The translations under genes and the position numbers were made by a program. A stretch of 64,000 bases of DNA, from contig OZ252098.1 of assembly GCA_965248355.1 (NCBI GenBank), positions 352,001-416,000 of the forward strand. Reading direction: 5' to 3'. The stretch's first letter is position 1. The number at the start of each line of letters is the position of its first letter. Shown piece by piece: positions 23,595 through 58,246 of this stretch. This stretch comes from Candidatus Latescibacterota bacterium. Its GTDB lineage: Bacteria; Latescibacterota; UBA2968; UBA8231. The notes under the pieces are model-generated. The model made no database searches. It saw nothing but the letters and a program-made list of their open reading frames with translations, and was not told the DNA's origin.

Positions 23595-23903
23595 ATGGCT
23601 CGTGTGGGATTCCGGATGCAGCTCAAGCCGGGGAACGAGGCGGAGTACAAACGGCGCCACGACGAGGTCTGGTCCGACTTGGCCCGGCTGCTGCGTGACT
23701 CGGGGATCCGCAACTACACCATCTACCGGGACGGGACCACGCTCTTCGCCTGCCTCGAGATCGACGACCCGGAGGCGCTGGAGGGACTGGCCGGGGAGGA
23801 GCTGATGCGGAAGTGGTGGCGCTACATGGAACCCCTCATGGTGTGCAATCCAGACAGCTCGCCCGTCATCACACCCCTCGAGGAAGCCTTTCACATGGAC
23901 TAG
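23595..23903 (+). CDS. rhaM: L-rhamnose mutarotase
   Basis: FRMQLKPG..EYKRRHDEVW..GIRNYTIY..KWWRYM..LEEAFHMD; GGGAGG RBS. Confidence 0.9.
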   Translation: MARVGFRMQLKPGNEAEYKRRHDEVWSDLARLLRDSGIRNYTIYRDGTTLFACLEIDDPEALEGLAGEELMRKWWRYMEPLMVCNPDSSPVITPLEEAFHMD

Positions 23904-45390: not shown

Positions 45391-46051
45391 GTTCTCTCCA
45401 GGGATCGGGAAGGCCCGCCGCGGCGAAGCCACGGGACCGGAGGCGGCAACTGTGGCAGTCACCGCAGGGGAAGTCGGAGCCAAGGTAGCAGGACCAGGTC
45501 AGGTGCAGGGGTGCTCCCAGCTCCACTCCGCGCCGGACGATGGCGGCCTTGTCGAGGTGGAGCAGGGGCGTGCGCACGCCGATCTCCACCGAGGCCGGGG
45601 TCGCCGCCTCGACGAGCCGGCCGAAGGCGCGGAAGAAGGCCGGTTGCGTATCCGGATAGGGCGATCCGGGAGCGTGGGCCCCGCAGAAGACCTCCGGGGC
45701 GCCGAGAACCTCGGCCCAGGCGACCGCCGCCGCCAGGAGACTGGCGTTGCGAAAGGGGACGTACGTCCCCGGCACCTCACCGCCGCCGGAGCCGTCCCCG
45801 GCGACCGGGAGAGTCCGGTCGGTCAGGCTTGAGCCGCCGAGGTCCCGCAGGTACCGGAGGTCGACCTCCCGCCGGCGCGAGAGGTTGTAGTGATCGGCGA
45901 TCTCCAGGAAGGCCCGCCGCTCCCGGCCCTCGGTTCGCTGGCCGTACCCGGCGTGCATCACCGCTACATCCTCTCCATGGCTTCGCAGGGCTTCCGCCAG
46001 GGCGACACAGCTGTCGAGACCCCCGCTCACGAGGGCGATGGCGGCGGTCAT
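45368..46051 (-). CDS. queC: 7-cyano-7-deazaguanine synthase
   Basis: SGGLDS PP-loop, YGQR, TYVPFRN and TWSCY..CGDCHSC motifs. Confidence 0.9.
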   Translation of the reverse strand: MTAAIALVSGGLDSCVALAEALRSHGEDVAVMHAGYGQRTEGRERRAFLEIADHYNLSRRREVDLRYLRDLGGSSLTDRTLPVAGDGSGGGEVPGTYVPFRNASLLAAAVAWAEVLGAPEVFCGAHAPGSPYPDTQPAFFRAFGRLVEAATPASVEIGVRTPLLHLDKAAIVRRGVELGAPLHLTWSCYLGSDFPCGDCHSCRLRSRGFAAAGLPDPWREHADRIRE

Positions 46052-46149: not shown

Positions 46150-47436
46150 ATGGCCTTCAAGCAGTTCGACCGGGTGCCCAATCACTACGCCGGCCCCGTC
46201 ATCCAGCGGATCAAGGACTTCCGGGAAAGCGAGGGCAAGCGCTCGCTGGCGCCGACGCGCCTGACCGTTGGCCAGCTCGAGGTGATCGTGCCCCGCCACT
46301 TCGGCTTCTGCTTCGGCGTGGAGCGCGCCATCCACATGGCCTTCTCCGCCATCGACAACCATCCCGACAAGCGGCTCAACCTCCTCAGCGAGATCATCCA
46401 CAACCCCCTGGTCAACGAGGACCTCGAGAACCGGGGGGTCCGATTCATCTACGACAGGAACGGCGAATACGACAGGAACGGCGAACGGCGCGTCGCGGAG
46501 GAGGAGATTTCTTCCGAAGACGTGGTCCTGATCCCCGCTTTCGGCACCACGCGGGAGATCGAGGACTCCCTGCAGCGCAGCGGCATCGACACCACGTCCG
46601 AGGATTTTCGCGAGAACTACGACACCACCTGTCCCTTCGTCTCCAAGGTCTGGAGTCGCGGCGAGGAGCTGGCCCGCGAAGGCTACACCATTCTCATCCA
46701 CGGCAAGTTCCGGCACGAGGAGACCCAGGCCACGCGCTCCCACACCCAGCAGTACGGCAAGACCCTGGTCGTCCTCGACCGGGAGGAAGCGCTGAAGGTG
46801 GCCCGCTTCATCGCCGGCCAGATGAGCGTCGACGAGTTCCGCGAGGGCTTCGAGGGCAAGTGGTCGGAAGGCTTCGACCCGGACCGGGACCTGGCCCGGG
46901 TGGCCGTCGTCAACCAGACGACGATGCTCGCCGAGGAGACCCAGGAGGTGACCGGCATCATCCGCGACGCCATCGCCGAGCGCTACGGCTTCGAGGTCCT
47001 CGACCACCACTTCGCCGATACCGCCGACACTCTGTGCTACGCCACCAACTGGAACCAGAACGCCACCAAGGCGCTCCTCGACGTCCAGCCGGACCTGGCC
47101 GTCATCGTCGGCGGCTACAACAGCTCCAACACCTCCCACCTGGTGGAAATCTGCGAACGCGTGATGCCGAGCTACCTGATCGGTTCGGCCGCCGACCTGC
47201 TGTCCCGGGAGCGCATCCGTCACTTCGACATCCACCGCAAGGAGATCGTCGAGACCCGGAGGTGGCTCCCGGAGGAATTGCCCGTGCGACTGGCCGTCAC
47301 CTCCGGCGCCAGCTGCCCGGACGTGCTGATGAACGACGTGGTGCAGCGCCTCTCCGCCTTCTACGGATACGGCGGCGACGACATCCAGGCCGGGCTCACG
47401 AATCTGGCTCTGCACGAGCCCGCGGTTCTGACCTGA
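46150..47436 (+). CDS. ispH: 4-hydroxy-3-methylbut-2-enyl diphosphate reductase (long form)
   Basis: FGFCFGVERAI, EIIHNP, DTTCPFV, HEET, NQTT, TLCYAT, NSSNT and TSGASCPD motifs. Confidence 0.95.
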   Translation: MAFKQFDRVPNHYAGPVIQRIKDFRESEGKRSLAPTRLTVGQLEVIVPRHFGFCFGVERAIHMAFSAIDNHPDKRLNLLSEIIHNPLVNEDLENRGVRFIYDRNGEYDRNGERRVAEEEISSEDVVLIPAFGTTREIEDSLQRSGIDTTSEDFRENYDTTCPFVSKVWSRGEELAREGYTILIHGKFRHEETQATRSHTQQYGKTLVVLDREEALKVARFIAGQMSVDEFREGFEGKWSEGFDPDRDLARVAVVNQTTMLAEETQEVTGIIRDAIAERYGFEVLDHHFADTADTLCYATNWNQNATKALLDVQPDLAVIVGGYNSSNTSHLVEICERVMPSYLIGSAADLLSRERIRHFDIHRKEIVETRRWLPEELPVRLAVTSGASCPDVLMNDVVQRLSAFYGYGGDDIQAGLTNLALHEPAVLT

Positions 47437-47441
47437 CAGAG

Positions 47442-47744
47442 ATGGTCCTGGCGCGGGTCAAGGGGCAGGCGGTGGCCTCGGCCAAGGTCGCCGATCTCGA
47501 GGGCCGGAGACTGCTGCTCGTGGAGTTGCTCACCGTCGACGGCGACGAGGTCGTCCCCACCCGCAGGCACATGGTCTGCGTCGACTCCGTGGGCGCCGGC
47601 CAGGGCGAGGTCGTCCTTCTCGTGCAGGGCAGCTCGGCCCGTCAGAGTCCGGGGATGGGGGACCTTCCCGTGGACGCCGTTCTGGTGGGCATCGTCCAGT
47701 CGGTCAGCGCCCGGGGTCATCGACTCGTACAGGCCGCCGCATGA
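47442..47744 (+). CDS. BMC pentamer (EutN/CcmL family) #1
   Basis: MVLARVKGQAVASAK..VCVDSVGAGQGEVVLLVQGSSAR..VDAVLVGIV. Confidence 0.92.
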   Translation: MVLARVKGQAVASAKVADLEGRRLLLVELLTVDGDEVVPTRRHMVCVDSVGAGQGEVVLLVQGSSARQSPGMGDLPVDAVLVGIVQSVSARGHRLVQAAA

Positions 47745-47998
47745 GAATGGCACGGGTCATCGGCAACGTCGTCGCCGGCGAACACCATCCCGCCCTCGAT
47801 CACCGCACGATCCTGGTCGTCGACGATGGCGGGGGCACCGCCCTGCAGCTGGCGGTCGACGCCGTGGGCGCGGGCCCTGGCTGCCGGGTCCTGGTCGCGG
47901 ATTCGGGCGCCGCCGGCCGCGAGGTCACGGGTCTCGAGTTCCCGCCCGTGCGCAGCGTCGTCGTGGGTATCGTCGACGGCCCCGGCGAGGCGCCGTGA
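47741..47998 (+). CDS. BMC pentamer (EutN/CcmL family) #2
   Basis: MARVIGNVVA..AVDAVGAGPG..VVVGIVD. Confidence 0.9.
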   Translation: MRMARVIGNVVAGEHHPALDHRTILVVDDGGGTALQLAVDAVGAGPGCRVLVADSGAAGREVTGLEFPPVRSVVVGIVDGPGEAP

Positions 47999-48267
47999 AG
48001 CTGGCCCGCGTTCTCGGTCAGGTCGTTCTGTCGCCGAAGATCGAGCCGTACCGGGACAGGAGCCTGCACCTGATTCAGGACGTGAACCGCGAGCTGCAGG
48101 GCGTGGGCGATCCCGAGGTGGCCGTCACCTGGCAGGCCATGGCCGAGGGAGACCTGGTCGTCGTCGAGGTCGCCCGGGAGGCGTGCAACGCCTTCGACAA
48201 CACGATCCCGGCCGACGCCGTCATCATCGGCCGCGCCGACCGGGTTCACATCGATACCGCTTCCTGA
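47995..48267 (+). CDS. BMC pentamer (EutN/CcmL family) #3, divergent
   Basis: MKLARVLGQVVLSPK..GDLVVVEVAREA..ADAVIIGRAD. Confidence 0.85.
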   Translation: MKLARVLGQVVLSPKIEPYRDRSLHLIQDVNRELQGVGDPEVAVTWQAMAEGDLVVVEVAREACNAFDNTIPADAVIIGRADRVHIDTAS

Positions 48268-48285
48268 GGGGCAGGCAGGAGAGAT

Positions 48286-48843
48286 ATGACAGAGGCTCTG
48301 GGCATGTTGGAGACGGTGGGGCTCACGGGCGCGATCGCCGGCGGAGATGCGATTTCGAAGGCGGCGAAGGTGGAGCTCCTGGGCTGGGACCGGGTGGGCT
48401 CGGGGATGGCGACCGTGTTCTGCGGCGGCGACGTGGCGGCGGTGAAGTCGGCGGTCGACGCCGGTGCGCAGGCGGCGTCGAAGGTGGGAGAGGTGCGCGC
48501 CGTGCACGTGATTCCGCGGCCCCATGCCGACCTGGGGCCGATCCTGCCTTCGAACGGGGGGGGGGAGGTGAGCGGGGTCCGCGCCCTGGGGATGGTGGAG
48601 ACCCGCGGCTCGACGGGGGTCATCGAGGCCGCGGACGCCATGGAGAAGGCGGCGGAGGTGGAGGTGGTCCGCGTCCAGGAGATCGGGGGCGGCTACATCA
48701 CGGTGCTGGTCACCGGGGACGTGGGCAGCGTGCAGTCGGCGGTCACGGCGGGAGCGGAGGCGGCGGAGCGCGTGGGCGAACTGCTCGCACGCCACGTCAT
48801 CGCCCGTCCGTCGGAGGCCGTGCTCTCATTGTATCTGGGATGA
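48286..48843 (+). CDS. Tandem two-domain BMC shell protein (BMC-T)
   Basis: Two ALGM[LV]ET..D...KAA.V..GDV..V.SAV.AG..HVI.RP units. Confidence 0.93.
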
Positions 48844-48856
48844 AAGGGAGAAGGTC

Positions 48857-49123
48857 ATGAGTGCCTTGGGCATGGTGGAGACGCGGGGTCTGGCGGCGGC
48901 TGTGGAGGCCCTGGACGCGATGCTGAAGACGGCGGACGTGAGGTACACGGGCCAGAAGCGTGTGGGCGGGGGCCTGGTGTCGGTCCTGGTGGAGGGGGAC
49001 GTGGCCTCGGTGAAGTCGGCGGTCGACGCCGGCGCCCAGGCGGCCCAGGGCGTGGGGGAGCTGCGCAGCGTGCACGTGATCCCCCGGCCGATCGACAAGC
49101 TCAAGAGCGCCGCCGGCATCTGA
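48857..49123 (+). CDS. Single-domain BMC hexamer (BMC-H, EutM/PduA-like)
   Basis: [33 protein letters not shown]. Confidence 0.95.
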
Positions 49124-49133
49124 CGGGACCGTC

Positions 49134-50558
49134 GTGGCCAAGGTGAGCGAAGACGGGGTCCGCCGCATCGTCGAGGAGGTTGTGGAGCAGGCCCTCGGTT
49201 CAGGGGCCGGATCCGGGGCCCCGGCTGCGGGCGGGTCCGGGGCGGGTCTGTTCCGTTCCGCCGACGAGGCCGTGGCCGCAGCCGGCCGGGCGCAGAGGTC
49301 CCTCGTCGAGCAGAGCCTGGAGCTGAGGCGCAAGATCGTCGAGGCGATCCGGCAGACGACCCGCGACCACGCCGAGACGTTCTCGCGCATGGCCCTCGAA
49401 GAGACGGGCATGGGCCGCTTCGAGGACAAGGTGCAGAAGCACCATCTGGCGGCCGATCTGACCCCCGGCGTCGAGGACCTCGAGTCGGTCTCGTGGACCG
49501 GGGACCACGGCCTGACCGTGGAGGAGATGGCGCCGTATGGCGTCATCTGCGCCGTCACGCCCTCCACCCACCCCGTACCGACCCTGGTGAACAACGCCAT
49601 CGGCATCATCGCCGCGGGCAACTCCGTCGTCTTCAATCCTCACCCCGGCGCCAAGGGAGTCTCCGCCCACTCGGTGCAGCTGCTGAACGACGCCATCGTC
49701 GCCGCCGGCGGGCCCGGGAACCTGATCGCCTGCATCGCCGAGCCGACGATCGAGAGCGCCGGCCAACTGTTCAACCACCGGGGGGTCGGGGTCATACTCG
49801 TCACGGGGGGGGCCGCAGTGGCCCGGGCGGCCCTCGCAAGTCCGAAGAAGTCCATCGTCGCCGGACCGGGGAATCCCCCGGTCGTCGTCGACGAGACCGC
49901 GGACCTCCGCAAGGCCGCGCGGGACATCGTCGACGGGGCCGCCTTCGACAACAACATCCTGTGCATCGGCGAGAAGCAGTGCTTCGTGGTCGACGCCGTG
50001 GCCGACGACCTCAAGGCGGAGATGGTCGCCTACAGCGCGGTCGAGCTCGACCCGGGTCAGGTCGACGCCCTGACCCGCGCGGTCCTGCCCCGGGGCGGGG
50101 ACGGCGAGCATCACCCGAGCCGCGACTTCATCGGCCGCAACGCCAACGTCCTGGGCCGGAGCATCGGCCTGGACCTCGACGACCGGCTGCGGCTGCTGAT
50201 CGGCGAGACCGGCGCCGACCATCCCTTCGTCACGGTGGAGCAGATGATGACCTTCCTGCCCATCGTCCGGGTGCGCGACGTGAGCGAGGGCATCCGCGCC
50301 GCCGTCGAGTCGGAGCACGGCTTCCGCCACACGGCGGTCATCCATTCCCGGAACGTGGAGAACATGCACAACATGGCGCGCGCCGTGGACACCACCGTGT
50401 TCGTCAAGAACGGACCTTCCTACGCCGGTCTCGGCGTCGGCGGCGAAGGGTTCTCCACGTACTCCATCGCCGGCCCCACCGGCGAAGGGCTGACCACGGC
50501 CCGCACTTTTACCCGCCGGCGTCGCTGCGCCCTGGTGGACTACTTCCGCATCACCTGA
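49134..50558 (+). CDS. CoA-acylating aldehyde dehydrogenase (EutE/PduP-like) with N-terminal encapsulation peptide
   Basis: N-terminal EDGVRRIVEEVVEQAL helix plus linker; AGPGNPP, FDNNILCIGEK and PTGEGLT motifs. Confidence 0.92.
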   Translation: MAKVSEDGVRRIVEEVVEQALGSGAGSGAPAAGGSGAGLFRSADEAVAAAGRAQRSLVEQSLELRRKIVEAIRQTTRDHAETFSRMALEETGMGRFEDKVQKHHLAADLTPGVEDLESVSWTGDHGLTVEEMAPYGVICAVTPSTHPVPTLVNNAIGIIAAGNSVVFNPHPGAKGVSAHSVQLLNDAIVAAGGPGNLIACIAEPTIESAGQLFNHRGVGVILVTGGAAVARAALASPKKSIVAGPGNPPVVVDETADLRKAARDIVDGAAFDNNILCIGEKQCFVVDAVADDLKAEMVAYSAVELDPGQVDALTRAVLPRGGDGEHHPSRDFIGRNANVLGRSIGLDLDDRLRLLIGETGADHPFVTVEQMMTFLPIVRVRDVSEGIRAAVESEHGFRHTAVIHSRNVENMHNMARAVDTTVFVKNGPSYAGLGVGGEGFSTYSIAGPTGEGLTTARTFTRRRRCALVDYFRIT

Positions 50559-50561
50559 CCC

Positions 50562-50879
50562 ATGCTCCTCGCCCAGGTGAAGGGTCAAGTCGTGGCCAGC
50601 GCCAAGCTCGACAACCTGTCGGGCCGCAAGCTGCTGCTCGCCGAGGTCCTCACCGTTCGTCCCGACGGGCTGCACGCCACCGGCCGTGAGGTGGTCTGCG
50701 TCGACGCCGTGAGCGCCGGCAGGGGCGACATCGTCCTCGTCGTCATGGGCAGCTCGGCGCGCACGGCCCCGGAGCTGGGCACGGTCCCCACCGACGCCGC
50801 CATCGTCGCCATCCTCGAGGGTCTGACCGCCGACGGCCGGAGGCTCGATCTGGGTCGCGTCGTCGAAGGGGCCGGGTGA
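50562..50879 (+). CDS. BMC pentamer (EutN/CcmL family) #4
   Basis: MLLAQVKGQVVASAK..CVDAVSAGRGD..GSSAR..TDAAIVAI; closest to pentamer #1. Confidence 0.92.
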   Translation: MLLAQVKGQVVASAKLDNLSGRKLLLAEVLTVRPDGLHATGREVVCVDAVSAGRGDIVLVVMGSSARTAPELGTVPTDAAIVAILEGLTADGRRLDLGRVVEGAG

Positions 50880-51586
50880 AGGGCGAAGTGGTCGCCGCCG
50901 TCGACAGGGCCCGGGTGGAGGCGCTGGTCCGCCAGGCCCTGAAGCACCGACTCCCGAATCACCCGGTGGACGCCAGGCCTTCGAGTCCGGCGCCCCGCCT
51001 GGTCGCCAACATCTCGGCCAGGCACTGTCACCTCGACGCGGGATCCCTGGAGACGCTCTTCGGCAAGGGCGCGGAGCTGAAGGTGCTCAAACCTCTCTAC
51101 CAGGCCGGCGCCTTCGCCGCCGAAGAGACGGTGACCATCTTCGGACCGCGCAAGCAGATGATCTCCAACCTGCGCGTCCTCGGACCGCTGCGCGAGGCCT
51201 GCCAGGTGGAGCTCGCCTTCTCCGACGCGCGCTTTCTCGGCATCGACGCCCCGGTGCGGCTCAGCGGACACATCGACGGTTCCCCCGGATGCTACCTGGT
51301 GGGGCCCGCCGGCGGCCAGGAGATGGGCCAGGGCGTGATCCGCGCGGCCCGCCACGTGCACATGAACCCCGAGGAGGCGGCGTTCTACGGCGTCGCCGGC
51401 GGCGACCGAATGCGCCTGGTCGTCCGCAGCGATCAGCCGGGAGCCCTCGAGGACGTGATCGTGCGAGTCGATGCCGGCTCGAAGCTCGAGGTCCACGTCG
51501 ATACCGACGAGGGTAACGCCGTGGATCTCGTCAGCGCCGCAAAGGTCGTTCTCGAGAAGCAACAGCCGGGCGAGGGCAGGCCATGA
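50876..51586 (+). CDS. pduL: Phosphotransacylase with N-terminal encapsulation peptide
   Basis: DRARVEALVRQAL helix; NISARHCHL, RVLGPLR, RHVHM and HVDTDEGNA motifs. Confidence 0.92.
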   Translation: MKGEVVAAVDRARVEALVRQALKHRLPNHPVDARPSSPAPRLVANISARHCHLDAGSLETLFGKGAELKVLKPLYQAGAFAAEETVTIFGPRKQMISNLRVLGPLREACQVELAFSDARFLGIDAPVRLSGHIDGSPGCYLVGPAGGQEMGQGVIRAARHVHMNPEEAAFYGVAGGDRMRLVVRSDQPGALEDVIVRVDAGSKLEVHVDTDEGNAVDLVSAAKVVLEKQQPGEGRP

Positions 51587-51668
51587 GCGCCTTGGGCATG
51601 GTGGAGACGCGGGGCCTGGCGGCCGCGGTAGAGGCGACGTGGCCTCGGTGAAGTCGGCGGGCATCTGA
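51583..51668 (+). pseudogene. Internally deleted remnant of a second BMC-H gene
   Basis: 86 nt made of the 5' end (ATGAGCGCCTTGGGCATGGTGGAGACGCGGGG), middle (GACGTGGCCTCGGTGAAGTCGGCG) and 3' end (GGCATCTGACGGG) of the 48857-49123 gene. Confidence 0.85.
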
Positions 51669-51671
51669 CGG

Positions 51672-52151
51672 GTGACGGGCCGACTGCACATCTCCGAGGC
51701 CGTTGTCACCGAGGAGGTCCTGCGCGCCCGTCACGCCGGACAGGAGGAGGTATCGGTGAACGCCGGGGCGGTGGTGACGCCCACCGGGTGGGACTACCTG
51801 CGGCGCCACCGGATGCGGCTGACCCGGGGCCAGGCGGCAGAGCCGGGCGGTTCCCAGCCGGCGTCCGGCGAGGTCCCGGAGGTGCTGCCGCCGGGCGCCG
51901 AGGGCGGGCTGCTGAGCCGCGGACGCTGCGACCACCCCGACCGCCCGTACGGCTGCAAGACCGAGGAATTCGGCTCCGGATTCGTGGAGCCTTCCTCCTG
52001 CTCCCGGTGCGCGGTGTACCAGGCGGAGCTGGCGGGCCGGCCGAGTTGCGGCTGTGGCGGCTGCAACCGCCGGGTCGCGGCCGAGGAGGAGGAGGAGGCC
52101 CTGGTGCAGCGTCTCACCGACGAGATCATGCGCAGGCTGAAGGAGGAGTGA
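51672..52151 (+). CDS. Uncharacterised Cys-rich BMC-associated protein with C-terminal encapsulation-peptide-like helix
   Basis: N-terminal VVT..VVTPTGWDYLR module; seven Cys including CxxC and CGCGGC; C-terminal EEALVQRLTDEIMRRL. Confidence 0.7.
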   Translation: MTGRLHISEAVVTEEVLRARHAGQEEVSVNAGAVVTPTGWDYLRRHRMRLTRGQAAEPGGSQPASGEVPEVLPPGAEGGLLSRGRCDHPDRPYGCKTEEFGSGFVEPSSCSRCAVYQAELAGRPSCGCGGCNRRVAAEEEEEALVQRLTDEIMRRLKEE

Positions 52152-52156
52152 GGGGC

Positions 52157-52735
52157 GTGTCCGAGGCCATCGGGATGATCGAGGTGGAGGGAGTGGCGGG
52201 CATCGTCGTCGGCGCCGACGCGGCCTGCAAGGCGGCCCAGGTCGAGCTCATGGGCTGGGAGTCGATCGGCGGTTTCACGACCCTCTTCCTGCGCGGCCCT
52301 CTCGGTGACGTGAGCGCCGCCCTTCGCGAAGGCGAAGCGGCGGCCGGGACCGTGACCGGCCACGTGGTCAGCGCCTGCCTGGATCAGCCGCAGCCCGAGT
52401 GCGCCGGCTTCGTCGGTTGTCCCCGGTCGCCGGGCGAGGTGGAGGCGGCCGCCCTGGGCCTGATCGAGACCCGGGGGTACGGCGTCCACGTGGAGGTGAA
52501 CGACGCCATGGTCAAGGCCGCCGGCGTGGCGGTGGCCAACGTGCTCACCGTGCACAACCGCGTCGTGTGCAGCCTGATCACCGGTCCCGTGGACGCCGTG
52601 GAGCAGGCCATCGGCCGCGGCCGGGAGCGGTTGGCCGGCGACGAGTGGTTCATGGCCTCGGCCGTGATCCCACAGCCCCTCCCGTCGGTGCTGAGCGCCT
52701 TCGTCCTCTTCCGTCCCACCGCCGGGACGAGCTGA
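52157..52735 (+). CDS. Two-domain BMC shell protein (divergent BMC-T)
   Basis: GTG start; AIGMIEVEG..ADAACKAA and ALGLIETRG..DAMVKAA..VIPQP domains. Confidence 0.88.
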   Translation: MSEAIGMIEVEGVAGIVVGADAACKAAQVELMGWESIGGFTTLFLRGPLGDVSAALREGEAAAGTVTGHVVSACLDQPQPECAGFVGCPRSPGEVEAAALGLIETRGYGVHVEVNDAMVKAAGVAVANVLTVHNRVVCSLITGPVDAVEQAIGRGRERLAGDEWFMASAVIPQPLPSVLSAFVLFRPTAGTS

Positions 52736-53886
52736 TGGAGCGCGCCCTGGGCATCCTGGAGGTCAGGGGCATGACGGCCCTGGCGGCGGCCCTCGACTCG
52801 ATGCACAAGGCGGCCTCCGTGCGGCTGGCCGGACGCCACGGGGTCGGCTCCGGCTGGTTGACGGCGATCGTCGAGGGCGCCACGGCGGACGCGCGCACCG
52901 CCCTCGACGCGGGTCGCGAGGCGGCCGCCGCCCACGGCGACGTGATCACCGCCGTCGTCGTTCCGGGAGCCGAGCCCGCGGCCCTCGAGCCGATGCCCCA
53001 CTCCGGCGTCTCCCTCGAGGCCGGGACCGGTCTCCAGGCCCTCGGCCTTCTCGAGACCCGGGGCCTCGTCCCCCTGGCCGCCGGCGCCGACGCCATGGTC
53101 AAGGCGGCCGACGTGGAGCTCCACGGCTGGTCCTTCATCGGCGGCGCCTTGATGCACGCCGCGGTCACCGGCTCCGTGGGGGCCGTGGAGGCCGCCGTGC
53201 AGGCCGGGGAGCGGTCCGCCCGGAGGGCGGGCGAGTTCCATGGCGCCCTGGTGCTTCCCCAACCGGAGCCCCAGGTGGGAGTCCTGCTGCCCTCCGGGCC
53301 GGCGGGAACTCCGCCGCCCGCCGGCGCCCTCGGGATCGTCGAGGCCACGGGGTACGTGGCCTCGGTGGCCGCCGGCGACGGCATGGTGAAGGGAGCACGC
53401 GTCGACCTGGCGCGGCTGACCATCGGCAGCGGGGGCCGGGTGGCGGCCGTCGCCACCGGAGCCCTGGACGAAGTCGGCGCCGCCGTCGCGGAGGGGGCCC
53501 GCCGGGTCGAGGAGACGGCGGAGCTCGAGGGGCAGGTGGTGATCAGCGGTCCCGACCCCCGAGTCCTGGCCTGCTTCGCCCAGGCCGCCGGGTCCCCCGG
53601 CGAGCGCCCTCTCGCGGGCCGGGCCATGGGCCTGGTGGAGACGCGCACCACCATCGGTCTCGCAAAGGCCCTCGACGAGATGCTCAAGAACGCCGACGTG
53701 ACCTACGAGGGCCGGTACAAGGCGGGCTACTTCCTCACGGCCTGTGTCGTGCGCGGAGAGACGGGGGCCGTCGACACCGCTCTCGACGTGGCGCGGCGCA
53801 CCGCCGGTCGCTACGGGGAGCTGGTGGCCGCCCGCGCCATCCCCTTACCCTATGACGAGATGGAGGTGCGCCTGCCTCACGGGTAG
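52735..53886 (+). CDS. Four-domain BMC shell protein (383 aa)
   Basis: Four consecutive BMC units starting ALGILEVRG, ALGLLETRG, ALGIVEATG and AMGLVETRT, each with D.M.K.A.V and a terminal P-x-P-like strand, joined by short Pro/Gly linkers. Confidence 0.88.
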   Translation: MERALGILEVRGMTALAAALDSMHKAASVRLAGRHGVGSGWLTAIVEGATADARTALDAGREAAAAHGDVITAVVVPGAEPAALEPMPHSGVSLEAGTGLQALGLLETRGLVPLAAGADAMVKAADVELHGWSFIGGALMHAAVTGSVGAVEAAVQAGERSARRAGEFHGALVLPQPEPQVGVLLPSGPAGTPPPAGALGIVEATGYVASVAAGDGMVKGARVDLARLTIGSGGRVAAVATGALDEVGAAVAEGARRVEETAELEGQVVISGPDPRVLACFAQAAGSPGERPLAGRAMGLVETRTTIGLAKALDEMLKNADVTYEGRYKAGYFLTACVVRGETGAVDTALDVARRTAGRYGELVAARAIPLPYDEMEVRLPHG

Positions 53887-55098
53887 GTGTCCCAGGACAT
53901 GGTCCGTATCGACGATCCCGTAGTCACCGCCCAACTGCTCGAGGGCCGTCTCGGGCAGGACGACCGGCAGGTCGAGATCTCACCGCGTTCGACGGTCACC
54001 CCCTCCGCCAAGGATCTCCTGCGGGCCCGGGGGATCGAAGTCGTGCCGCCGTCGCAGGGCGCGTCCAGCCCCGCGCTCCCGCCCGCCGGCGTGCCCGCGC
54101 CTCCGGGAGGAACCGAGCGGAGCCGCCGGTTCAGCGGCATCTTCACGCCCAACATCGTGATCTACGACGAGCAGGGGCGGATCGCCTACGGCGAGATGGA
54201 GCGCTACATCGCGTGGCTCATCGACGCCGGCATCCACGGACTCTACCCGAACGGCAGCACGGGGGAGTTCGTGCGCCTCTCCAGCGAGGAACGGCGCGAC
54301 GTGGTGCGGCTCATCGCCGAGGTCAACCAGGGCCGGGTGCCGATCCTGGCCGGCGCCAGCGAGGCCAACATCCGCGACGTGCTGCAGATGGCCGAGTACT
54401 ACGCCGACCTCGGCGCCGACGCCATCTCCCTCGTGCCGCCCTACTACTACAAGATCTCCGACACGAGCCTGTACGAGTACTTCGCCGAGATCGCCCGCCA
54501 CTCCCCCCTCGACATCCTGCTCTACAACATCCCGCAGTTCACCCAGGAGCTGCCCCTGGACACGATGGAGCAGCTCCTCGCCTACGAACGCATCTTCGGC
54601 ACCAAGGATTCCAGCCGCGACCTGCCGCGCATCGTCAACACCATGGATCGCCTGCGCCGGCACCGGCCCGACTACGTCGTGCTCAACGGCTGCGAGGAGA
54701 TCCTGCTGCCGTCGATCGTCATGGGGGCCAACGGCGGCACCATCGCCACCTCCGGCATCGTTCCCGAGATCATCGTCGAGCTCTACGACCGCACCGTCGC
54801 CGGGGATCTCCAGCGGGCGAAGGAGCTTCAGTACCGTCTCCTGCCCCTGATCAACCTCATGCTGCTGGGGGTGAATTTCCCCGAGGGATTCAAGACCGGC
54901 GTGGCCGTGCGCGGCTTCGAGGTCGGTCCGCCGCGGACCGTGCTGAGCGCCGAGGAGCGCGACTACCTGCTGCGCCTGGAGTCCGAGATCGGCTGCGTCC
55001 TTGGCGACATGGGTTATTCCGTCCGCGGTGCCCGGGGTTGCCCGGTGACCCATCTGCCGCCCATCGTGGCCGGCCGGAAGCCCCCGCCCGGGGGCTGA
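53887..55098 (+). CDS. DapA/NAL-family class I aldolase with N-terminal BMC-associated extension
   Basis: NGSTGEF, PPYY, LYNIP and Schiff-base KDSS motifs; ~75 aa N-terminal extension ending in a Pro-rich linker. Confidence 0.88.
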   Translation: MSQDMVRIDDPVVTAQLLEGRLGQDDRQVEISPRSTVTPSAKDLLRARGIEVVPPSQGASSPALPPAGVPAPPGGTERSRRFSGIFTPNIVIYDEQGRIAYGEMERYIAWLIDAGIHGLYPNGSTGEFVRLSSEERRDVVRLIAEVNQGRVPILAGASEANIRDVLQMAEYYADLGADAISLVPPYYYKISDTSLYEYFAEIARHSPLDILLYNIPQFTQELPLDTMEQLLAYERIFGTKDSSRDLPRIVNTMDRLRRHRPDYVVLNGCEEILLPSIVMGANGGTIATSGIVPEIIVELYDRTVAGDLQRAKELQYRLLPLINLMLLGVNFPEGFKTGVAVRGFEVGPPRTVLSAEERDYLLRLESEIGCVLGDMGYSVRGARGCPVTHLPPIVAGRKPPPGG

Positions 55099-55120
55099 GG
55101 CCGCCCGGCAGGCCTCGATC

Positions 55121-56221
55121 GTGAGCGCCGGGGACCGCGCCCGGGTCCTGGTGGCCGGCGCCGGCATCGTCGGACGTTCCGTCGCCTACTACCTCTCCCG
55201 GTCGGGTGTCTCCGTGGTAGTCGCCGACCGGGATCCGTCGCCTTCCGCCACCACCCGGGCCTCCCTCGGCGTCCTCACCCGGCCCACCGGAGGGGAGGAT
55301 CCGTTCTCCTCCTTCCACCGGGACGGCCATGCCCTGCACGAGGAGCTGAGCGTCCGGCTGCGCGAGGAGACCGGCCGTGACGCGGGCTGGCGGCCCCTCG
55401 GAGGACTGGACCTGGCCTTCGGCGAGGAGGAGGCCGAGGGGCTACGCTCCCTCGTCGATGAGAGCCGGTCTCGTGGAGTCCGGGCCGAGTGGCTCGAGCC
55501 GCGCCAGGTGCGGGAGGCGGAGCCGGCCCTGTCGGAGGCCGTGTGCGGGGCTTCCTTCTACCCCCAGGACAGCCGCGTCGACCCGCCGAGCCTGGCGTCG
55601 GTGCTGCAACGGGCGGCCGAGGCCCGGGGCGCCGAGTTCCGCTTCCAGGCCACGGTGGCGGCTTTGCGTACCACGTCCGGAGGAGTGGAGTGCGATCTGC
55701 GCGACGGCGCCGGATCCCGGCGAGCCGTCTTCGATGCGGCCGTGATCGCCGCCGGATCCTGGTCGGGGGAGATCGCCGGTCCGGCGGCCGGGAGGCTGCA
55801 GGTGCGCCCGGTACGTGGCCAGAGCGGTCTGTTCTCCGGCGACCCCGTACACCACCTGGTGCGCTGGTCCGGGATGCACGTGCTGCCGGTCCCAGGGGGC
55901 CTCCTCGCAGGGGGAACGGTGGAGGAGGCCGGGTTCAGCGCCGGGACCACGCCAGCGGCGGGGCGGAAGCTGACCGCCTGGTGCGAGCGCGTCCTGGCCC
56001 GCAAGCCGATCCTGCGCCGGCAGCGCGCCGGGCTGCGTCCCAAGCCGCGGCAGGGCCGCCCCCTCGTCGGCCCCCTGCCCGGTGCCGCGAACCTGTGGGC
56101 GGCCACCGGGCACTACAGGAACGGCGTGCTGTTGGCTCCGATCACGGGCCAGGTCCTGGCCCGGTGGCTGACAGGGGGCGAGCCCGGCCGGGACATGTCC
56201 CGCTTTGCCGTCGATCGTTGA
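55121..56221 (+). CDS. FAD-dependent oxidoreductase, glycine oxidase ThiO/DadA family
   Basis: VAGAGIVG, AAGSW, PVRGQ, AGLRP and ATGHYRNGVLLAPITG motifs. Confidence 0.85.
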   Translation: MSAGDRARVLVAGAGIVGRSVAYYLSRSGVSVVVADRDPSPSATTRASLGVLTRPTGGEDPFSSFHRDGHALHEELSVRLREETGRDAGWRPLGGLDLAFGEEEAEGLRSLVDESRSRGVRAEWLEPRQVREAEPALSEAVCGASFYPQDSRVDPPSLASVLQRAAEARGAEFRFQATVAALRTTSGGVECDLRDGAGSRRAVFDAAVIAAGSWSGEIAGPAAGRLQVRPVRGQSGLFSGDPVHHLVRWSGMHVLPVPGGLLAGGTVEEAGFSAGTTPAAGRKLTAWCERVLARKPILRRQRAGLRPKPRQGRPLVGPLPGAANLWAATGHYRNGVLLAPITGQVLARWLTGGEPGRDMSRFAVDR

Positions 56222-56296
56222 CGGCCGTCGAGGGGCCTCCGTACTCTCTACGGCCTCTGCCGACCGTCGCCCTTACCCAACCGACCGGAGCCCTGC

Positions 56297-57238
56297 ATGC
56301 CCTACAGCACCGAAGATCTGCTCGACGCCCTGGACACGGTCATCTCGATCCCCATCGTCCCCTTCCGCGCAGGCCGGATCGACTACGAAGCCCACGGAAA
56401 GAACATCGACTACCTCCTGGGCACGAAGGCGCTGGAGGGGGACCGCGAGCGCGTGATCTCCATCGCCGGCACGAGCCTCGTGCACCATATCGATACGGAC
56501 GAGCAGCTGAACCTGATGGAGTACACGGCGGCCCGGGTGGCGGGCAGGGGCATCTTCATCTCCGGCGTGGCACCCAACCCCCTGGCCGACGCCGAGCGGC
56601 TGATCGCGGCCCAGTGCCGCCTGGCGAATCCGCCCGACGCCTTTCTGCTCATGCCGCTGACGGGGGTGGCCGATCCGCAGGGCATCTACCACGGGTACAT
56701 GGCCCTGGCGGAGAGGCTCGGAGGGGACCACGGCGCTCGCTTCCTCTACTACCTGCGACAGTCCAACCAGGCGCCGGCCGCCGTGCGGCTGGTGAACGAT
56801 TCGCCCCACTTTCTCGGGGTCAAGATCGGCACCCGCCCCGAGGACGTGAAGCCCATGGTGGAGGGCGTCCGGAAGGGCGCCGGCATCGTCATCTGGGGGA
56901 TCGGCGACCGCAGCACGGGACCGGCCCGGGAGGGCGCCAGAGGCCACACCTCGGGGATCAACGTGGTCTTCGCCAAGGCCTCCGACGAGATCAACAACGC
57001 CCAGCGCCGCGGAGACTACGAGCGCGCCGGGCAGGTCGAGGAGGAGCTGACGGCCCTGGAGGAGATCCGCTTCCGCGACGATCGCCGCTACAACTACTCC
57101 GCTGTGGTCGAGGCCATGCACCTGAGCGGGTTCGACGATATCGAGGGCGGCGAGGGCGGTCCCTTCAACCCGCGGGTGCCCTCCGAAGTGGCCGGCGAGG
57201 TGGAGGCCGCCATCCGGCCGATCCTGCACTACCACTGA
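56297..57238 (+). CDS. Divergent DapA-like TIM-barrel lyase
   Basis: IPIVPF..IDY..GKNIDYL, LYY and GVKIG motifs; lacks canonical GxxGE. Confidence 0.65.
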   Translation: MPYSTEDLLDALDTVISIPIVPFRAGRIDYEAHGKNIDYLLGTKALEGDRERVISIAGTSLVHHIDTDEQLNLMEYTAARVAGRGIFISGVAPNPLADAERLIAAQCRLANPPDAFLLMPLTGVADPQGIYHGYMALAERLGGDHGARFLYYLRQSNQAPAAVRLVNDSPHFLGVKIGTRPEDVKPMVEGVRKGAGIVIWGIGDRSTGPAREGARGHTSGINVVFAKASDEINNAQRRGDYERAGQVEEELTALEEIRFRDDRRYNYSAVVEAMHLSGFDDIEGGEGGPFNPRVPSEVAGEVEAAIRPILHYH

Positions 57239-57266: not shown

Positions 57267-57566
57267 CTACCCCGGCCCTCGGAGCCGCTGGAGGTAGTCC
57301 TCCCATTCGAGGGGCAGCAGGTCCTTCTTGCGGGTGTTGCAGTCCTTGCAGCAGGGCACGACGTTGCCCCTCTCGCTGCAACCGCCGCGCACGATGGGCA
57401 CGACGTGGTCCATGGTGAGCTCTCGCGGCGGCGTCGGGCAGCCGCAGTAGTGGCACCTGCCGAGGCCGAGCCGGCGTTTCCACCACTGGCTGTCCCGGAG
57501 ATCCCGGGCCTTGCGCTTCTCCCGGACGATGTGCTCCTGGGAAGCCGGTGTGAACCAGGGTTCCAC
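57267..57566 (-). CDS. Small HNH endonuclease
   Basis: CHYCG..LTMDHVVP..GG..NVVPCCKDCN. Start approximate. Confidence 0.85.
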   Translation of the reverse strand: MEPWFTPASQEHIVREKRKARDLRDSQWWKRRLGLGRCHYCGCPTPPRELTMDHVVPIVRGGCSERGNVVPCCKDCNTRKKDLLPLEWEDYLQRLRGPG

Positions 57567-57580
57567 GAGGCGAGACTCGT

Positions 57581-58246
57581 CTACAGCACGTCCACGTAGA
57601 TCGCCTCGGCCACGTCGAGACCGATGTGCTGCTCTCCGGAGTGGCCCACGTCGAGGCGCAGGGGGCCGCGGAAGGGAGCCCGGTCCCGCACTCGGACCTC
57701 GGTGCCGAGGACGAGCCCGCTGCGGTCGAGGTATCGCAGAAGCTCCGGGTCGCGGTCGCTCACCTGCCGGATGCGTCCCCGCTGCCCCGTGCTCAACTCG
57801 GACAGCCGCGCGTAGTCGTGCTCGGCGATGACCCCGTCCTTGGTGGGGATCGGCTCGCCGTGGGCGCCCACCGTGGGGTGCCCCAGGGCCTTGTCGATGC
57901 GGTCCTCGAAGTCCTCCGAGATCACGTGTTCGAGGCGGTCGGCCTCGGCGTCGACCTGGTCCCACTCGTAGCCCAGAGCCTCGCGGAGATAGAGCTCGAG
58001 CAAGCGGTGATGGCGCACGATCTCCAGGGCGATCTTCTCACCCGAGGGGGTCAGCTCCACCCCCTGGTACGGATGGTGGTCGAGGAGCCGCATCTCGGCC
58101 AGTTTCTTGATCATGTTCGTGGCCGACGCCGCCGAGACGTGCAGGCGCCCGGCGATATGCGAAGTCGTCACCATACCGCCGGCTTCCCGGGCCCGCGAGA
58201 GCTTGAAGATCGCCTTCAGGTAGTCCTGTATCGCATCGCTGAGCAT
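57581..58246 (-). CDS. DtxR/MntR/IdeR-family metal-dependent repressor with C-terminal FeoA-like domain
   Basis: DYLKAI, RHHRLLELYL, EADRLEH and HGEPIP motifs. Confidence 0.92.
   Translation of the reverse strand: MLSDAIQDYLKAIFKLSRAREAGGMVTTSHIAGRLHVSAASATNMIKKLAEMRLLDHHPYQGVELTPSGEKIALEIVRHHRLLELYLREALGYEWDQVDAEADRLEHVISEDFEDRIDKALGHPTVGAHGEPIPTKDGVIAEHDYARLSELSTGQRGRIRQVSDRDPELLRYLDRSGLVLGTEVRVRDRAPFRGPLRLDVGHSGEQHIGLDVAEAIYVDVL

What the first reader, a model, noticed from the sequence alone, without database searches (positions are those of the whole stretch)
47442..57238. Microcompartment locus whose apparent signature enzyme is a DapA-family class I aldolase
Seen: 4 BMC-P, 1 intact BMC-H, 2 BMC-T, a four-domain shell protein, an acylating AldDH and PduL (both with encapsulation helices), a Cys-rich protein and a DapA-family aldolase with an N-terminal extension. 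There is no alcohol dehydrogenase, acyl kinase, class II aldolase, B12 enzyme or glycyl radical enzyme in the locus. Known: metabolosomes need an aldehyde-generating enzyme, and DapA/NAL-family members cleave 2-keto-3-deoxy sugar acids or 4-hydroxy-2-oxo acids to pyruvate plus an aldehyde. Inference: the BMC handles the aldehyde from a non-phosphorylative sugar-acid route (e.g. lactaldehyde from 2-keto-3-deoxy-rhamnonate/fuconate), unlike the phosphorylated class II aldolase route of Planctomycetes/Verrucomicrobia BMCs.
Basis: partly seen in the sequence, partly recalled or inferred. Interest (0 to 1): 0.85.

Follow-up and report, generated by a model that had tools for sequence, protein, structure and literature searches.

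The report
Microcompartment operon with two candidate aldolases
This is a real bacterial microcompartment operon whose DapA-like enzyme is probably packaged cargo, but the genome also holds a second, packaging-tagged aldolase elsewhere, so the DapA-like enzyme is likely one of two interchangeable aldehyde sources.

Summary
Window 47442-55098 is a 12-gene metabolosome operon: 4 BMC-P, 1 BMC-H, 2 BMC-T, a four-domain shell protein, AldDH, PduL, a Cys-rich protein and an N-extended DHDPS-family enzyme.

- **For it:** the DHDPS-like enzyme is not the true DapA. It sits directly after shell genes in 52 of 52 related loci. It carries a targeting device in two different clades.
- **Against it:** the genome has a class II aldolase with a C-terminal encapsulation helix beside a satellite BMC-H. 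That aldolase tracks the AldDH across the phylum (127 and 126 of 151 genomes), while the DHDPS-like enzyme occurs in 71 of 151. Two complete operons lack the DHDPS-like enzyme. Two genomes have it without the tagged class II aldolase, and one has neither.
- **The last two genes are bystanders:** the ThiO-like oxidase and the second DHDPS-like gene (55121-57238) persist in relatives with no shell genes.

I could not check that, because supplements are closed. The substrate is unproven.

The parts
47442..47744 (+). BMC-P (pentamer vertex protein), first of a triplet
   Evidence: PF03319, 82.2 bits; start found
47741..47998 (+). BMC-P, second of the triplet
   Evidence: PF03319, 66 bits
47995..48267 (+). 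BMC-P, third of the triplet
   Evidence: PF03319, 43.7 bits
48286..48843 (+). BMC-T (T1), two non-permuted BMC domains
   Evidence: PF00936 twice, 164.5 bits
48857..49123 (+). BMC-H
   Evidence: PF00936, 94.9 bits; PDB relatives are EutM and PduA, E about 1e-26
49134..50558 (+). CoA-acylating aldehyde dehydrogenase with an N-terminal amphipathic helix and Gly/Ser/Ala linker
   Evidence: NF011927, 642.7 bits, cut-off 403; 52% identical to E. coli EutE; N-terminus read
50562..50879 (+). BMC-P, fourth copy
   Evidence: PF03319, 78.4 bits
50876..51586 (+). PduL-type phosphotransacylase with an N-terminal helix and Pro-rich linker
   Evidence: PF06130, 214.8 bits, residues 45-217; NF011652, 217.1 bits
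51672..52151 (+). Cys-rich protein: N-terminal domain shared with the DHDPS-like enzyme, six conserved Cys, acidic linker, C-terminal amphipathic helix
   Evidence: No Pfam or NCBIfam family. hhalign of the N-domain profile to residues 5-55: probability 96.1%, E 3e-9. Cys86, 95, 110, 113, 128 and 131 are kept in 33-36 of 36 homologues
52157..52735 (+). BMC-T (T2), two non-permuted BMC domains; its end overlaps the start of the next gene
   Evidence: PF00936 twice, 113 bits; start codons; upstream of the DHDPS-like gene in 52 of 52 loci
52735..53886 (+). Four-domain BMC shell protein (Q4)
   Evidence: PF00936 four times, 203 bits. Directly upstream of the DHDPS-like gene in 52 of 52 loci. Found in 70 of 151 genomes, in the same families as the N-extended enzyme
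53887..55098 (+). DHDPS/NAL-family class I (Schiff-base) enzyme: a 48-aa folded N-terminal domain, a disordered linker and the catalytic barrel. The probable true start is the ATG at 53899
   Evidence: PF00701, 205 bits, residues 82-359. Below cut-off for dapA and NAL. Catalytic Lys kept, no Arg138. AF2 pLDDT 85.2, N-domain above 90, residues 53-70 below 50. Homologues start at MVRIDD
55121..56221 (+). ThiO-like FAD oxidase (DAO family), with no targeting extension; a neighbour, probably not an organelle part
   Evidence: PF01266, 218 bits. TIGR02352, 202.2 bits, below the 250.8 cut-off. Best PDB relatives are glycine oxidases. Kept beside IspH and an FAH gene in shell-less genomes
56297..57238 (+). 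Second, divergent DHDPS-family protein (Dap2): Lys kept, GxxGE motif lost; a neighbour, probably not an organelle part
   Evidence: PF00701, 39.4 bits; alignments. Found in 52 of 151 genomes, all in family f1, including 5 genomes without any shell domain

Best explanation
Window 47442-55098 is the main operon of an aldehyde-oxidising metabolosome. It encodes a shell of BMC-H, two BMC-T, a four-domain tile and four BMC-P, a core of CoA-acylating AldDH plus PduL, and a Cys-rich accessory protein. The organelle appears to have two alternative aldehyde-producing aldolases. One is a class II aldolase with a C-terminal encapsulation helix, encoded 672 kb away beside a satellite BMC-H. It is the partner of the AldDH across the phylum. 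The other is the DHDPS-family class I enzyme at 53887-55098. It travels with BMC-T and the four-domain tile as a portable module, and it is targeted by a small folded N-terminal domain. In a sister clade the same enzyme family is targeted instead by an ordinary C-terminal helix. Shown here: gene content, synteny, phyletic patterns, the targeting extensions, and loss of the DHDPS-like gene together with the shell. Inferred: the DHDPS-like enzyme cleaves a 4-hydroxy-2-oxo or 2-keto-3-deoxy acid to pyruvate plus an aldehyde; both aldolases feed the same AldDH; the aldehyde is therefore probably shared, most plausibly L-lactaldehyde from rhamnulose- or fuculose-1-phosphate and from 2-keto-3-deoxy-rhamnonate or -fuconate. 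AldDH would then make the acyl-CoA and PduL would recycle CoA as acyl-phosphate. The ThiO-like oxidase and the second DHDPS-like gene downstream are conserved neighbours and not organelle parts.
For: **DHDPS-like enzyme as cargo.** Q4 and T2 lie directly upstream in 52 of 52 loci. Its N-domain is conserved and followed by a variable Ala/Pro/Gly linker that is disordered in the model. The same domain heads the Cys-rich protein. A profile of this domain finds only these two proteins in the window's genome, one each in three other shell-bearing genomes, and none in the shell-less G083. Homologues about 50% identical in families f8 and f14 lack the N-domain. They end in a linker plus amphipathic helix in 4 of 4 intact cases and sit beside a BMC-T in 5 of 5.

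**Co-loss with the shell.** Five genomes with no PF00936 or PF03319 match lack this enzyme and the AldDH but keep the oxidase and Dap2.

**Class II aldolase as cargo.** The satellite BMC-H, TM protein and aldolase form one run of genes. The C-terminal helix is present in 10 of 10 shell-bearing genomes checked and missing in 3 of 3 shell-less ones. The aldolase is found in 127 of 151 genomes and the AldDH in 126 of 151, with near-identical counts per family. The two are adjacent in L076-L079.

**Either aldolase suffices.** G060 and G103 have only the class II aldolase. G065 and G090 have only the DHDPS-like enzyme.

**Aldolase chemistry.** The Schiff-base Lys and catalytic Tyr are kept, and Phe stands where DapA has Arg138 and NanA, YagE and YjhH have Leu. 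YagE is the top Foldseek match, although DHDPS structures follow closely.

**Deoxy-hexose hint.** The genome has a 42%-identical RhaB, an L-rhamnose mutarotase and a FucO-like gene. E. coli FucA hits only the satellite aldolase.
Against: - No substrate was tested. The enzyme is only about 24-30% identical to any characterised family member, and Foldseek ranks DHDPS structures almost level with YagE.
- G152 (one contig, 93% complete) has a reduced operon with neither aldolase, so a third aldehyde source may exist.
- No FucI, RhaA or RhaD homologue was found with the E. coli queries.
- The sugar-acid context (Zn-ADH, two enolase-superfamily genes) was seen in only one lineage, downstream of the split module.
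- The helices are called encapsulation peptides by their form and phyletic pattern, not by experiment.
- The genomes compared are related MAGs, so the counts are not independent.
Confidence: 0.55

Rival explanations
1. One reading: the DHDPS-family class I aldolase is the single signature enzyme, and the organelle serves a non-phosphorylative sugar-acid route instead of a class II aldolase route.
For: No class II aldolase lies within 47442-57238. Linkage to shell genes is strict, 52 of 52 loci. G065 and G090 have this enzyme and no tagged class II aldolase. Enolase-superfamily and Zn-ADH genes lie downstream in the split-module lineage.
Against: A class II aldolase with a C-terminal helix lies beside a satellite BMC-H in this genome and in relatives. 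AldDH and class II aldolase are neighbours elsewhere in the phylum. The DHDPS-like enzyme occurs in 71 of 151 genomes against 126 of 151 for the AldDH. Complete operons without it exist in G060 and G103.
Confidence: 0.12
2. The DHDPS-like enzyme is cargo but does not make the aldehyde. It works in the condensing direction, or as a dehydratase or deaminase of the family. For example it could trap an aldehyde with pyruvate, or process a product of the class II aldolase step.
For: The family includes non-aldolase members; NCBIfam gives weak matches to 5-dehydro-4-deoxyglucarate dehydratase models. A conserved C-terminal tail with two invariant Cys is unusual for the family. G152 suggests the aldehyde can come from elsewhere.
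Against: In G065 and G090 it is the only aldolase linked to the shell. It has the Lys, Tyr and GSTGE motif of the pyruvate aldolases, and a hydrophobic residue at the Arg138 position as in NanA, YagE and YjhH.
Confidence: 0.15
3. The oxidase, Dap2 and the DHDPS-like enzyme form one amino-acid pathway feeding a semialdehyde or glyoxylate into the organelle. This would resemble D-hydroxyproline catabolism, or a route from a 4-hydroxy amino acid to a 4-hydroxy-2-oxo acid.
For: A DAO-family oxidase next to DHDPS-family genes is the gene pattern of bacterial hydroxyproline catabolism (recalled, not from a call). The oxidase follows the enzyme in 39 of 56 loci.
Against: The oxidase and Dap2 stay together beside IspH and an FAH gene in genomes with no shell, no AldDH and no DHDPS-like enzyme. 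Family f3 has the T2-Q4-enzyme module without oxidase or Dap2. Neither protein has a targeting extension. The oxidase resembles glycine oxidases most closely but is below the ThiO cut-off.
Confidence: 0.08

Closest known systems
PVM, PVM-like, ACI and HO metabolosomes (Sutter et al. 2021, PMC8217296: section 8 read whole, other passages seen)
   Same: AldDH plus PduL core, a BMC-P triplet, and a pfam00596 class II aldolase as aldehyde source. [quoted passage not shown] The same order, AldDH-P-P-aldolase, is seen here in L076 and L077.
   Different: In the window's family the class II aldolase has moved to a satellite beside a BMC-H. The main operon carries a DHDPS-family enzyme, a four-domain tile and a Cys-rich protein, none of which the paper's main text mentions.
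MUF2 locus type of the same catalogue
   Same: The earlier agent filed a look-alike 14-gene operon on other DNA, sharing 43 of 180 short words with this enzyme, under MUF2. The paper's main text lists MUF2-3 among the types with an AldDH but no obvious signature enzyme.
   Different: Not verifiable here. The type descriptions are in Supplementary Data 2, which is closed. The only papers holding the word MUF2 in this sense are the two versions of the catalogue.
EUT modules as satellite extensions of HO, SPU3 and SPU6 organelles (PMC8217296, section 10 passage)
   Same: A signature enzyme travels with its own BMC-T as a separable module. It is found fused to the main locus or apart from it, and is read as extending the organelle to a second substrate. 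Here T2-Q4-enzyme is fused in family f1 and separate in f3, and enzyme plus BMC-T is separate in f8.
   Different: The enzyme is a DHDPS-family lyase, not EutABC. The tiles are non-permuted BMC-T and a four-domain protein, not EutL.
DHDPS/NAL-family 2-keto-3-deoxy sugar-acid aldolases (E. coli YagE and YjhH). L-KDF aldolase of Watanabe 2020: only its title was seen, in a reference list; the paper is not held; its family assignment is recalled.
   Same: Schiff-base Lys, catalytic Tyr and a hydrophobic residue in place of DapA Arg138. YagE is the best Foldseek match (TM 0.89 on the target).
   Different: Only 26% identity to YagE and YjhH. Unlike them it has an N-terminal targeting domain, a Cys-bearing C-terminal tail and shell-gene linkage. 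Its activity is untested.

Membership tests
Metabolosome (aldehyde-oxidising BMC) | BMC-H or BMC-T (PF00936) and BMC-P (PF03319) shell genes clustered together | tested here: met
   9 BMC-domain matches and 4 EutN matches in 47442-53886
Metabolosome (aldehyde-oxidising BMC) | CoA-acylating AldDH and a phosphotransacylase in the locus | tested here: met
   NF011927 at 642.7 bits and NF011652 at 217.1 bits, both over cut-off
Metabolosome (aldehyde-oxidising BMC) | Alcohol dehydrogenase and acyl kinase completing the core | tested here: not met
   None in 47442-57238. A FucO-like gene lies elsewhere at G000:2560291-2561346. No EutQ or EutP homologue was found.
PVM-like / ACI / HO group | pfam00596 class II aldolase associated with the shell genes and carrying an encapsulation peptide | tested here: met
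   PF00596 at 158.7 bits, two genes from a satellite BMC-H. A C-terminal linker plus helix is kept in 10 of 10 shell-bearing genomes checked and is missing in 3 of 3 shell-less ones. That it is an EP is judged by form and distribution only.
MUF2 (Sutter et al. 2021) | Gene set and shell-protein clades given in Supplementary Data 2 | not testable with these tools
Supplements are closed.
True dihydrodipicolinate synthase (DapA) | Score over the TIGR00674 cut-off | tested here: not met
   155.4 bits against 206.15; the genome's own dapA scores 217.6 bits
True dihydrodipicolinate synthase (DapA) | Arg138 (E. coli numbering), said to bind aspartate semialdehyde; that role is recalled, the position was aligned here | tested here: not met
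   Phe at that column; E. coli DapA has Arg
DHDPS/NAL class I pyruvate-lyase superfamily | Schiff-base Lys, catalytic Tyr, GxxGE carboxylate-binding motif and TIM-barrel fold | tested here: met
   Lys and Tyr are invariant in A2, with motif GSTGEF. The barrel is modelled at pLDDT 85, with TM 0.85-0.90 to family structures.
N-acetylneuraminate lyase | Score over the NF003164 or TIGR00683 cut-offs | tested here: not met
   160.6 bits against 281, and 135 against 382
2-keto-3-deoxy sugar-acid aldolase (YagE/YjhH-like) | Retro-aldol cleavage of KDG, KDX, KDR or KDF to pyruvate plus an aldehyde | not testable with these tools
   Only 26% identity to YagE and YjhH; needs an enzyme assay
Glycine oxidase ThiO (for 55121-56221) | Score over the TIGR02352 cut-off | tested here: not met
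   202.2 bits against 250.8. A second copy scoring 191.2 bits lies elsewhere, and no copy in the genome passes.

The most novel reading that the evidence does not exclude
BMC-T, the four-domain tile and the DHDPS-family lyase form a portable substrate-extension module. It plugs a non-phosphorylative 2-keto-3-deoxy-acid input into a class II-aldolase metabolosome. Cargo is delivered not by the usual amphipathic helix but by a new 48-residue folded domain, also found on a Cys-rich metal-binding protein. In the genomes searched, every family that has the N-extended enzyme also has the four-domain tile, which makes that tile the likely receptor. A further possibility is that the translationally coupled two-domain and four-domain proteins build one fully asymmetric six-domain tile.
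Probability: 0.3. Interest if true: 0.75.

Novelty: new member of a known kind. Interest (0 to 1): 0.5.

Why it matters
The catalogue's main text lists this group of organelles among those with an AldDH but no obvious signature enzyme (PMC8217296, section 8).

The comparisons here turn that gap into a short, testable list:
- two tagged aldolases, each missing from some genomes that still carry the operon;
- a targeting domain with no Pfam family and no clear PDB relative;
- a four-domain shell tile, which is not among the five hexagonal block types in the paper's main text.

The lineage is known only from MAGs labelled Latescibacterota and Gemmatimonadota. Assays of the recombinant enzymes would therefore be the first functional handle on an organelle found in 126 of 151 sampled genomes of the phylum.

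The work also shows that reading a signature enzyme from the main locus alone can mislead when satellite loci exist.

Tried and rejected
- **Complex prediction.** The N-domain with T2 and Q4 gave no support (score 0.00 twice, controls not run). This says nothing either way.
- **EutQ similarity.** A recalled likeness of the N-domain to the N-terminus of E. coli EutQ was not supported. hhalign gave probability 0.9% and aligned a different region. The ESM Atlas gave only a weak EutQ-fragment lead for the Cys-rich protein (score 0.78).
- **Family and fold of the N-domain.** Pfam at E up to 10 found nothing for the N-domain or the Cys-rich protein. Fold search of the N-domain model gave no Foldseek match at E of 0.001 or better, and a best VIA Z of 5.6, to a Cas1 N-terminal domain, below the usual noise level.
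- **Subfamily assignment of the enzyme.** PDB sequence and fold searches could not assign one; DHDPS, NAL and KDG-aldolase structures score alike.
- **Dap2 in the split loci.** The 315-aa gene after the enzyme in those loci is not a Dap2 homologue (E 4.2).
- **RhaEW.** The 679-aa gene beside the RhaB-like kinase is an S15 peptidase, not a RhaEW-type aldolase.
- **Gene context of the outgroup modules.** It was heterogeneous and uninformative.
- **Literature.** Searches linking microcompartments to dihydrodipicolinate synthase, 2-keto-3-deoxy acids, Latescibacteria, Gemmatimonadetes, MUF2 or four BMC domains found no description of this enzyme-shell link. Supplementary Data 2 of the catalogue may hold one and could not be seen.
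- **Not built.** A phylogeny of the AldDH or of the aldolase against characterised references was not built. Only E. coli references could be fetched.

Full report
**1. What is in the sequence**

The window has about 69% G+C, so open frames abound. The real genes were picked by Pfam hits.

From 47442 to 57238 there are 14 co-directional, tightly packed genes, in this order:
- three BMC-P
- a BMC-T (T1)
- a BMC-H
- a CoA-acylating AldDH
- a fourth BMC-P
- PduL
- a 159-aa Cys-rich protein with no family
- a second BMC-T (T2)
- a protein with four BMC domains (Q4)
- a 403-aa DHDPS-family protein whose Pfam match starts at residue 82
- a DAO-family FAD oxidase
- a second, weakly matching DHDPS-family protein (Dap2)

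The block is flanked by IspH upstream and by HNH, DtxR-like and Feo genes downstream.

**2. The DHDPS-like enzyme is not DapA, and it is tied to the shell**

It scores below the NCBIfam cut-offs for dapA (155.4 against 206.15) and for N-acetylneuraminate lyase. The genome has its own dapA over the cut-off, and 11 family paralogues in all.

I aligned it with E. coli DapA, NanA, YagE and YjhH. It keeps the Schiff-base Lys and the catalytic Tyr. It has Phe where DapA has Arg138 and where the three aldolases have Leu.

Its relatives are numerous: 2678 proteins at E of 1e-20 or better among 8000 scored candidates. The 120 listed are 376-426 aa long, 68-100% identical, and named only as family members from Latescibacterota or Gemmatimonadota MAGs.

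Of 59 loci fetched from species-representative genomes, 56 hold close relatives. Counts in those 56 loci:
- Q4 and T2 lie directly upstream in 52 of the 52 loci with enough upstream sequence.
- The AldDH lies in the same locus in 32 of 48.
- The oxidase follows in 39 of 56. The script counted 38; L011 was missed because of a 5-base overlap.
- Dap2 follows in 33 of 55.

In 16 loci of one lineage only T2-Q4-enzyme is present, and the rest of the organelle is elsewhere. In G102, for example, PduL-H-P-AldDH-P-P-aldolase lies 3 Mb away.

**3. Targeting devices**

The first 48 residues are highly conserved. They are followed by a 25-45 residue Ala/Pro/Gly-rich stretch of variable sequence.

AlphaFold2 models the N-terminus as a confident beta-alpha-beta-alpha-beta domain (pLDDT above 90). 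It gives the linker a pLDDT of about 40 and models the remainder as a TIM barrel.

A profile of this domain matches residues 5-55 of the Cys-rich protein (hhalign probability 96.1%, E 3e-9). That protein also has six conserved Cys and a C-terminal amphipathic helix.

Searched over five genomes, the profile finds:
- these two proteins in the window's genome;
- only the Cys-rich protein in G060;
- only the enzyme in G102 and G140;
- nothing in the shell-less G083.

In families f8 and f14 the closest homologues (about 50% identity) have no N-domain. They end in a Gly/Pro-rich linker plus an amphipathic helix in 4 of 4 intact genes, and they are followed by a BMC-T in 5 of 5 loci. So one enzyme subfamily carries two different tags in two clades, always next to a shell gene. 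This is the strongest computational argument that it is cargo.

Q4 is found in 70 of 151 genomes, and only in families that also have the N-extended enzyme (f1 53/63, f2 2/30, f3 14/19). Q4 is therefore a candidate receptor. A complex prediction gave no support and is not used.

**4. A second aldolase, outside the window**

The genome (one 5.5-Mb contig) has two satellite BMC-H genes. One starts a run of three same-strand genes at G000:1073805-1075766: BMC-H, an LPG-synthase-like membrane protein, and a PF00596 class II aldolase. The aldolase ends in a Gly/Ser/Pro linker and an amphipathic helix resembling the N-terminal helix of the AldDH.

- **Conservation of the satellite.** It is conserved in four of five related genomes checked.
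- **The helix tracks the shell.** The helix is present in 10 of 10 shell-bearing genomes checked, from three families. In 3 of 3 shell-less genomes of genus g10 the helix is missing, and so is the BMC-H, although the flanking genes are kept.
- **Phyletic pattern.** In a sample of 151 genomes of the phylum, the aldolase occurs in 127 and the AldDH in 126, with near-identical counts per family. The DHDPS-like enzyme occurs in 71: 64 full length, 1 cut by a contig end, and 6 without the N-domain.
- **Adjacency.** Outside family f1 the AldDH and the aldolase are neighbours, as in L076-L079.

The premise that this organelle works without a class II aldolase therefore fails at the level of the genome.

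**5. Natural deletions sort the parts**

| Genomes | What they have |
|---|---|
| G083, G092, G099, G082, G080 (five f1 genomes) | No PF00936 or PF03319 match, no AldDH, no DHDPS-like enzyme. All five keep Dap2. In the two inspected (G083, G082) the order is IspH, FAH family (opposite strand), oxidase, Dap2. |
| 17 shell-bearing loci | The same FAH gene lies between the BMC-P triplet and the AldDH. |
| G060, G103 | Complete operons in which Q4 is followed at once by the oxidase. No orthologue of the DHDPS-like enzyme anywhere (best hits 30-32% identity). They keep a helix-tagged class II aldolase. |
| G065, G090 | The full operon with the DHDPS-like enzyme, but only a 33%-identical class II aldolase with no helix. 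|
| G152 | A reduced operon with one BMC-P and neither aldolase. |

The oxidase, Dap2 and FAH therefore form a resident gene group around which the organelle genes sit. They work without the organelle and have no targeting extensions. The DHDPS-like enzyme is lost together with the shell. Each aldolase is dispensable in some lineage, and one genome argues that a further aldehyde source may exist.

**6. Mechanism**

The best-supported model is a metabolosome with two interchangeable aldehyde-producing aldolases feeding one AldDH and PduL core. Because they share the AldDH, the aldehydes are probably the same or similar.

L-Lactaldehyde is the most economical guess. It would come from rhamnulose- or fuculose-1-phosphate through the class II enzyme, as in PVM organelles (PMC8217296, section 8). 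It would come from 2-keto-3-deoxy-rhamnonate or -fuconate through the class I enzyme.

Weak support for this guess:
- The genome has a 42%-identical rhamnulokinase homologue, an L-rhamnose mutarotase (window 23595-23903) and a FucO-like gene.
- E. coli FucA finds only the satellite aldolase.
- In the split-module lineage, a Zn-dependent dehydrogenase and two enolase-superfamily genes follow the module.

Against it, no FucI, RhaA or RhaD homologue was found. Glycolaldehyde from pentose derivatives is an equally open alternative; a 61%-identical YagF homologue exists. All of this is inference.

**7. Comparison with what is known**

The core resembles the PVM-like, ACI and HO group. The separable enzyme-plus-tile module resembles the EUT modules described for HO and SPU organelles (PMC8217296, passages seen).

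It also pointed to a class I aldolase as the probable aldehyde source. I could not verify the type, because Supplementary Data 2 is closed. The paper's main text names MUF2-3 only among types without an obvious signature enzyme.

No paper found by six searches links a DHDPS-family enzyme or a four-domain tile to microcompartments.

**8. Verdict**

This is a real, well-conserved organelle operon, probably of a catalogued but functionally unsolved type. The claim that it replaces the class II route does not survive. The last two genes of the interval are bystanders.

Noticed in passing
window 52735-53886: A shell protein with four non-permuted BMC domains. Its start overlaps the stop of the two-domain T2. 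The catalogue's main text names only one- and two-domain hexagonal tiles. Two plus four domains would make one six-domain tile, but this idea was not tested.
   Followed up: partly
window 46180-47436: The IspH (LytB) gene directly upstream is about 418 aa. Its Pfam match spans residues 35-391 for a 267-position model, so it carries a large insertion. It neighbours the operon in 23 of 56 related loci and neighbours the FAH-oxidase-Dap2 group in shell-less genomes.
   Followed up: no
window 55121-57238; L080, L081: The ThiO-like oxidase and the divergent DHDPS-like gene form a conserved pair that also includes an FAH-family gene in relatives. The group is independent of the organelle. Its pathway is unknown.
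   Followed up: partly
window 54980-55098 (C-terminal tail of the DHDPS-like enzyme): A conserved C-terminal tail with two invariant Cys (C366 and C381 in the numbering that starts at MVRIDD) is kept even in the outgroup homologues. This is unusual for the family.
   Followed up: no
G000:3004836-3005300 (outside the window; L065:7837-8301): A second satellite BMC-H of 154 aa has a roughly 70-residue C-terminal extension. It lies beside an O-antigen-ligase-like gene and a small gene with no family.
   Followed up: no
window 23595-23903 and 23959-25047: An L-rhamnose mutarotase gene (PF05336, 97.9 bits) stands alone next to a DDE-type transposase gene.
   Followed up: no
window 57267-57965 (- strand): An HNH endonuclease gene lies directly after the operon. 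A similar small HNH-like ORF follows the oxidase in G152.
   Followed up: no
window 43807-45483 (- strand): A 558-aa protein with an N,N-dimethylformamidase beta-subunit-like C-terminal domain (PF20254, 188.3 bits) lies upstream of IspH.
   Followed up: no
L021:11249-19392: In the lineage with the separate T2-Q4-enzyme module, the downstream genes are an unknown 315-aa protein, two PhyH dioxygenases, a Zn-ADH, a DapF-like protein and two enolase-superfamily proteins.
   Followed up: partly
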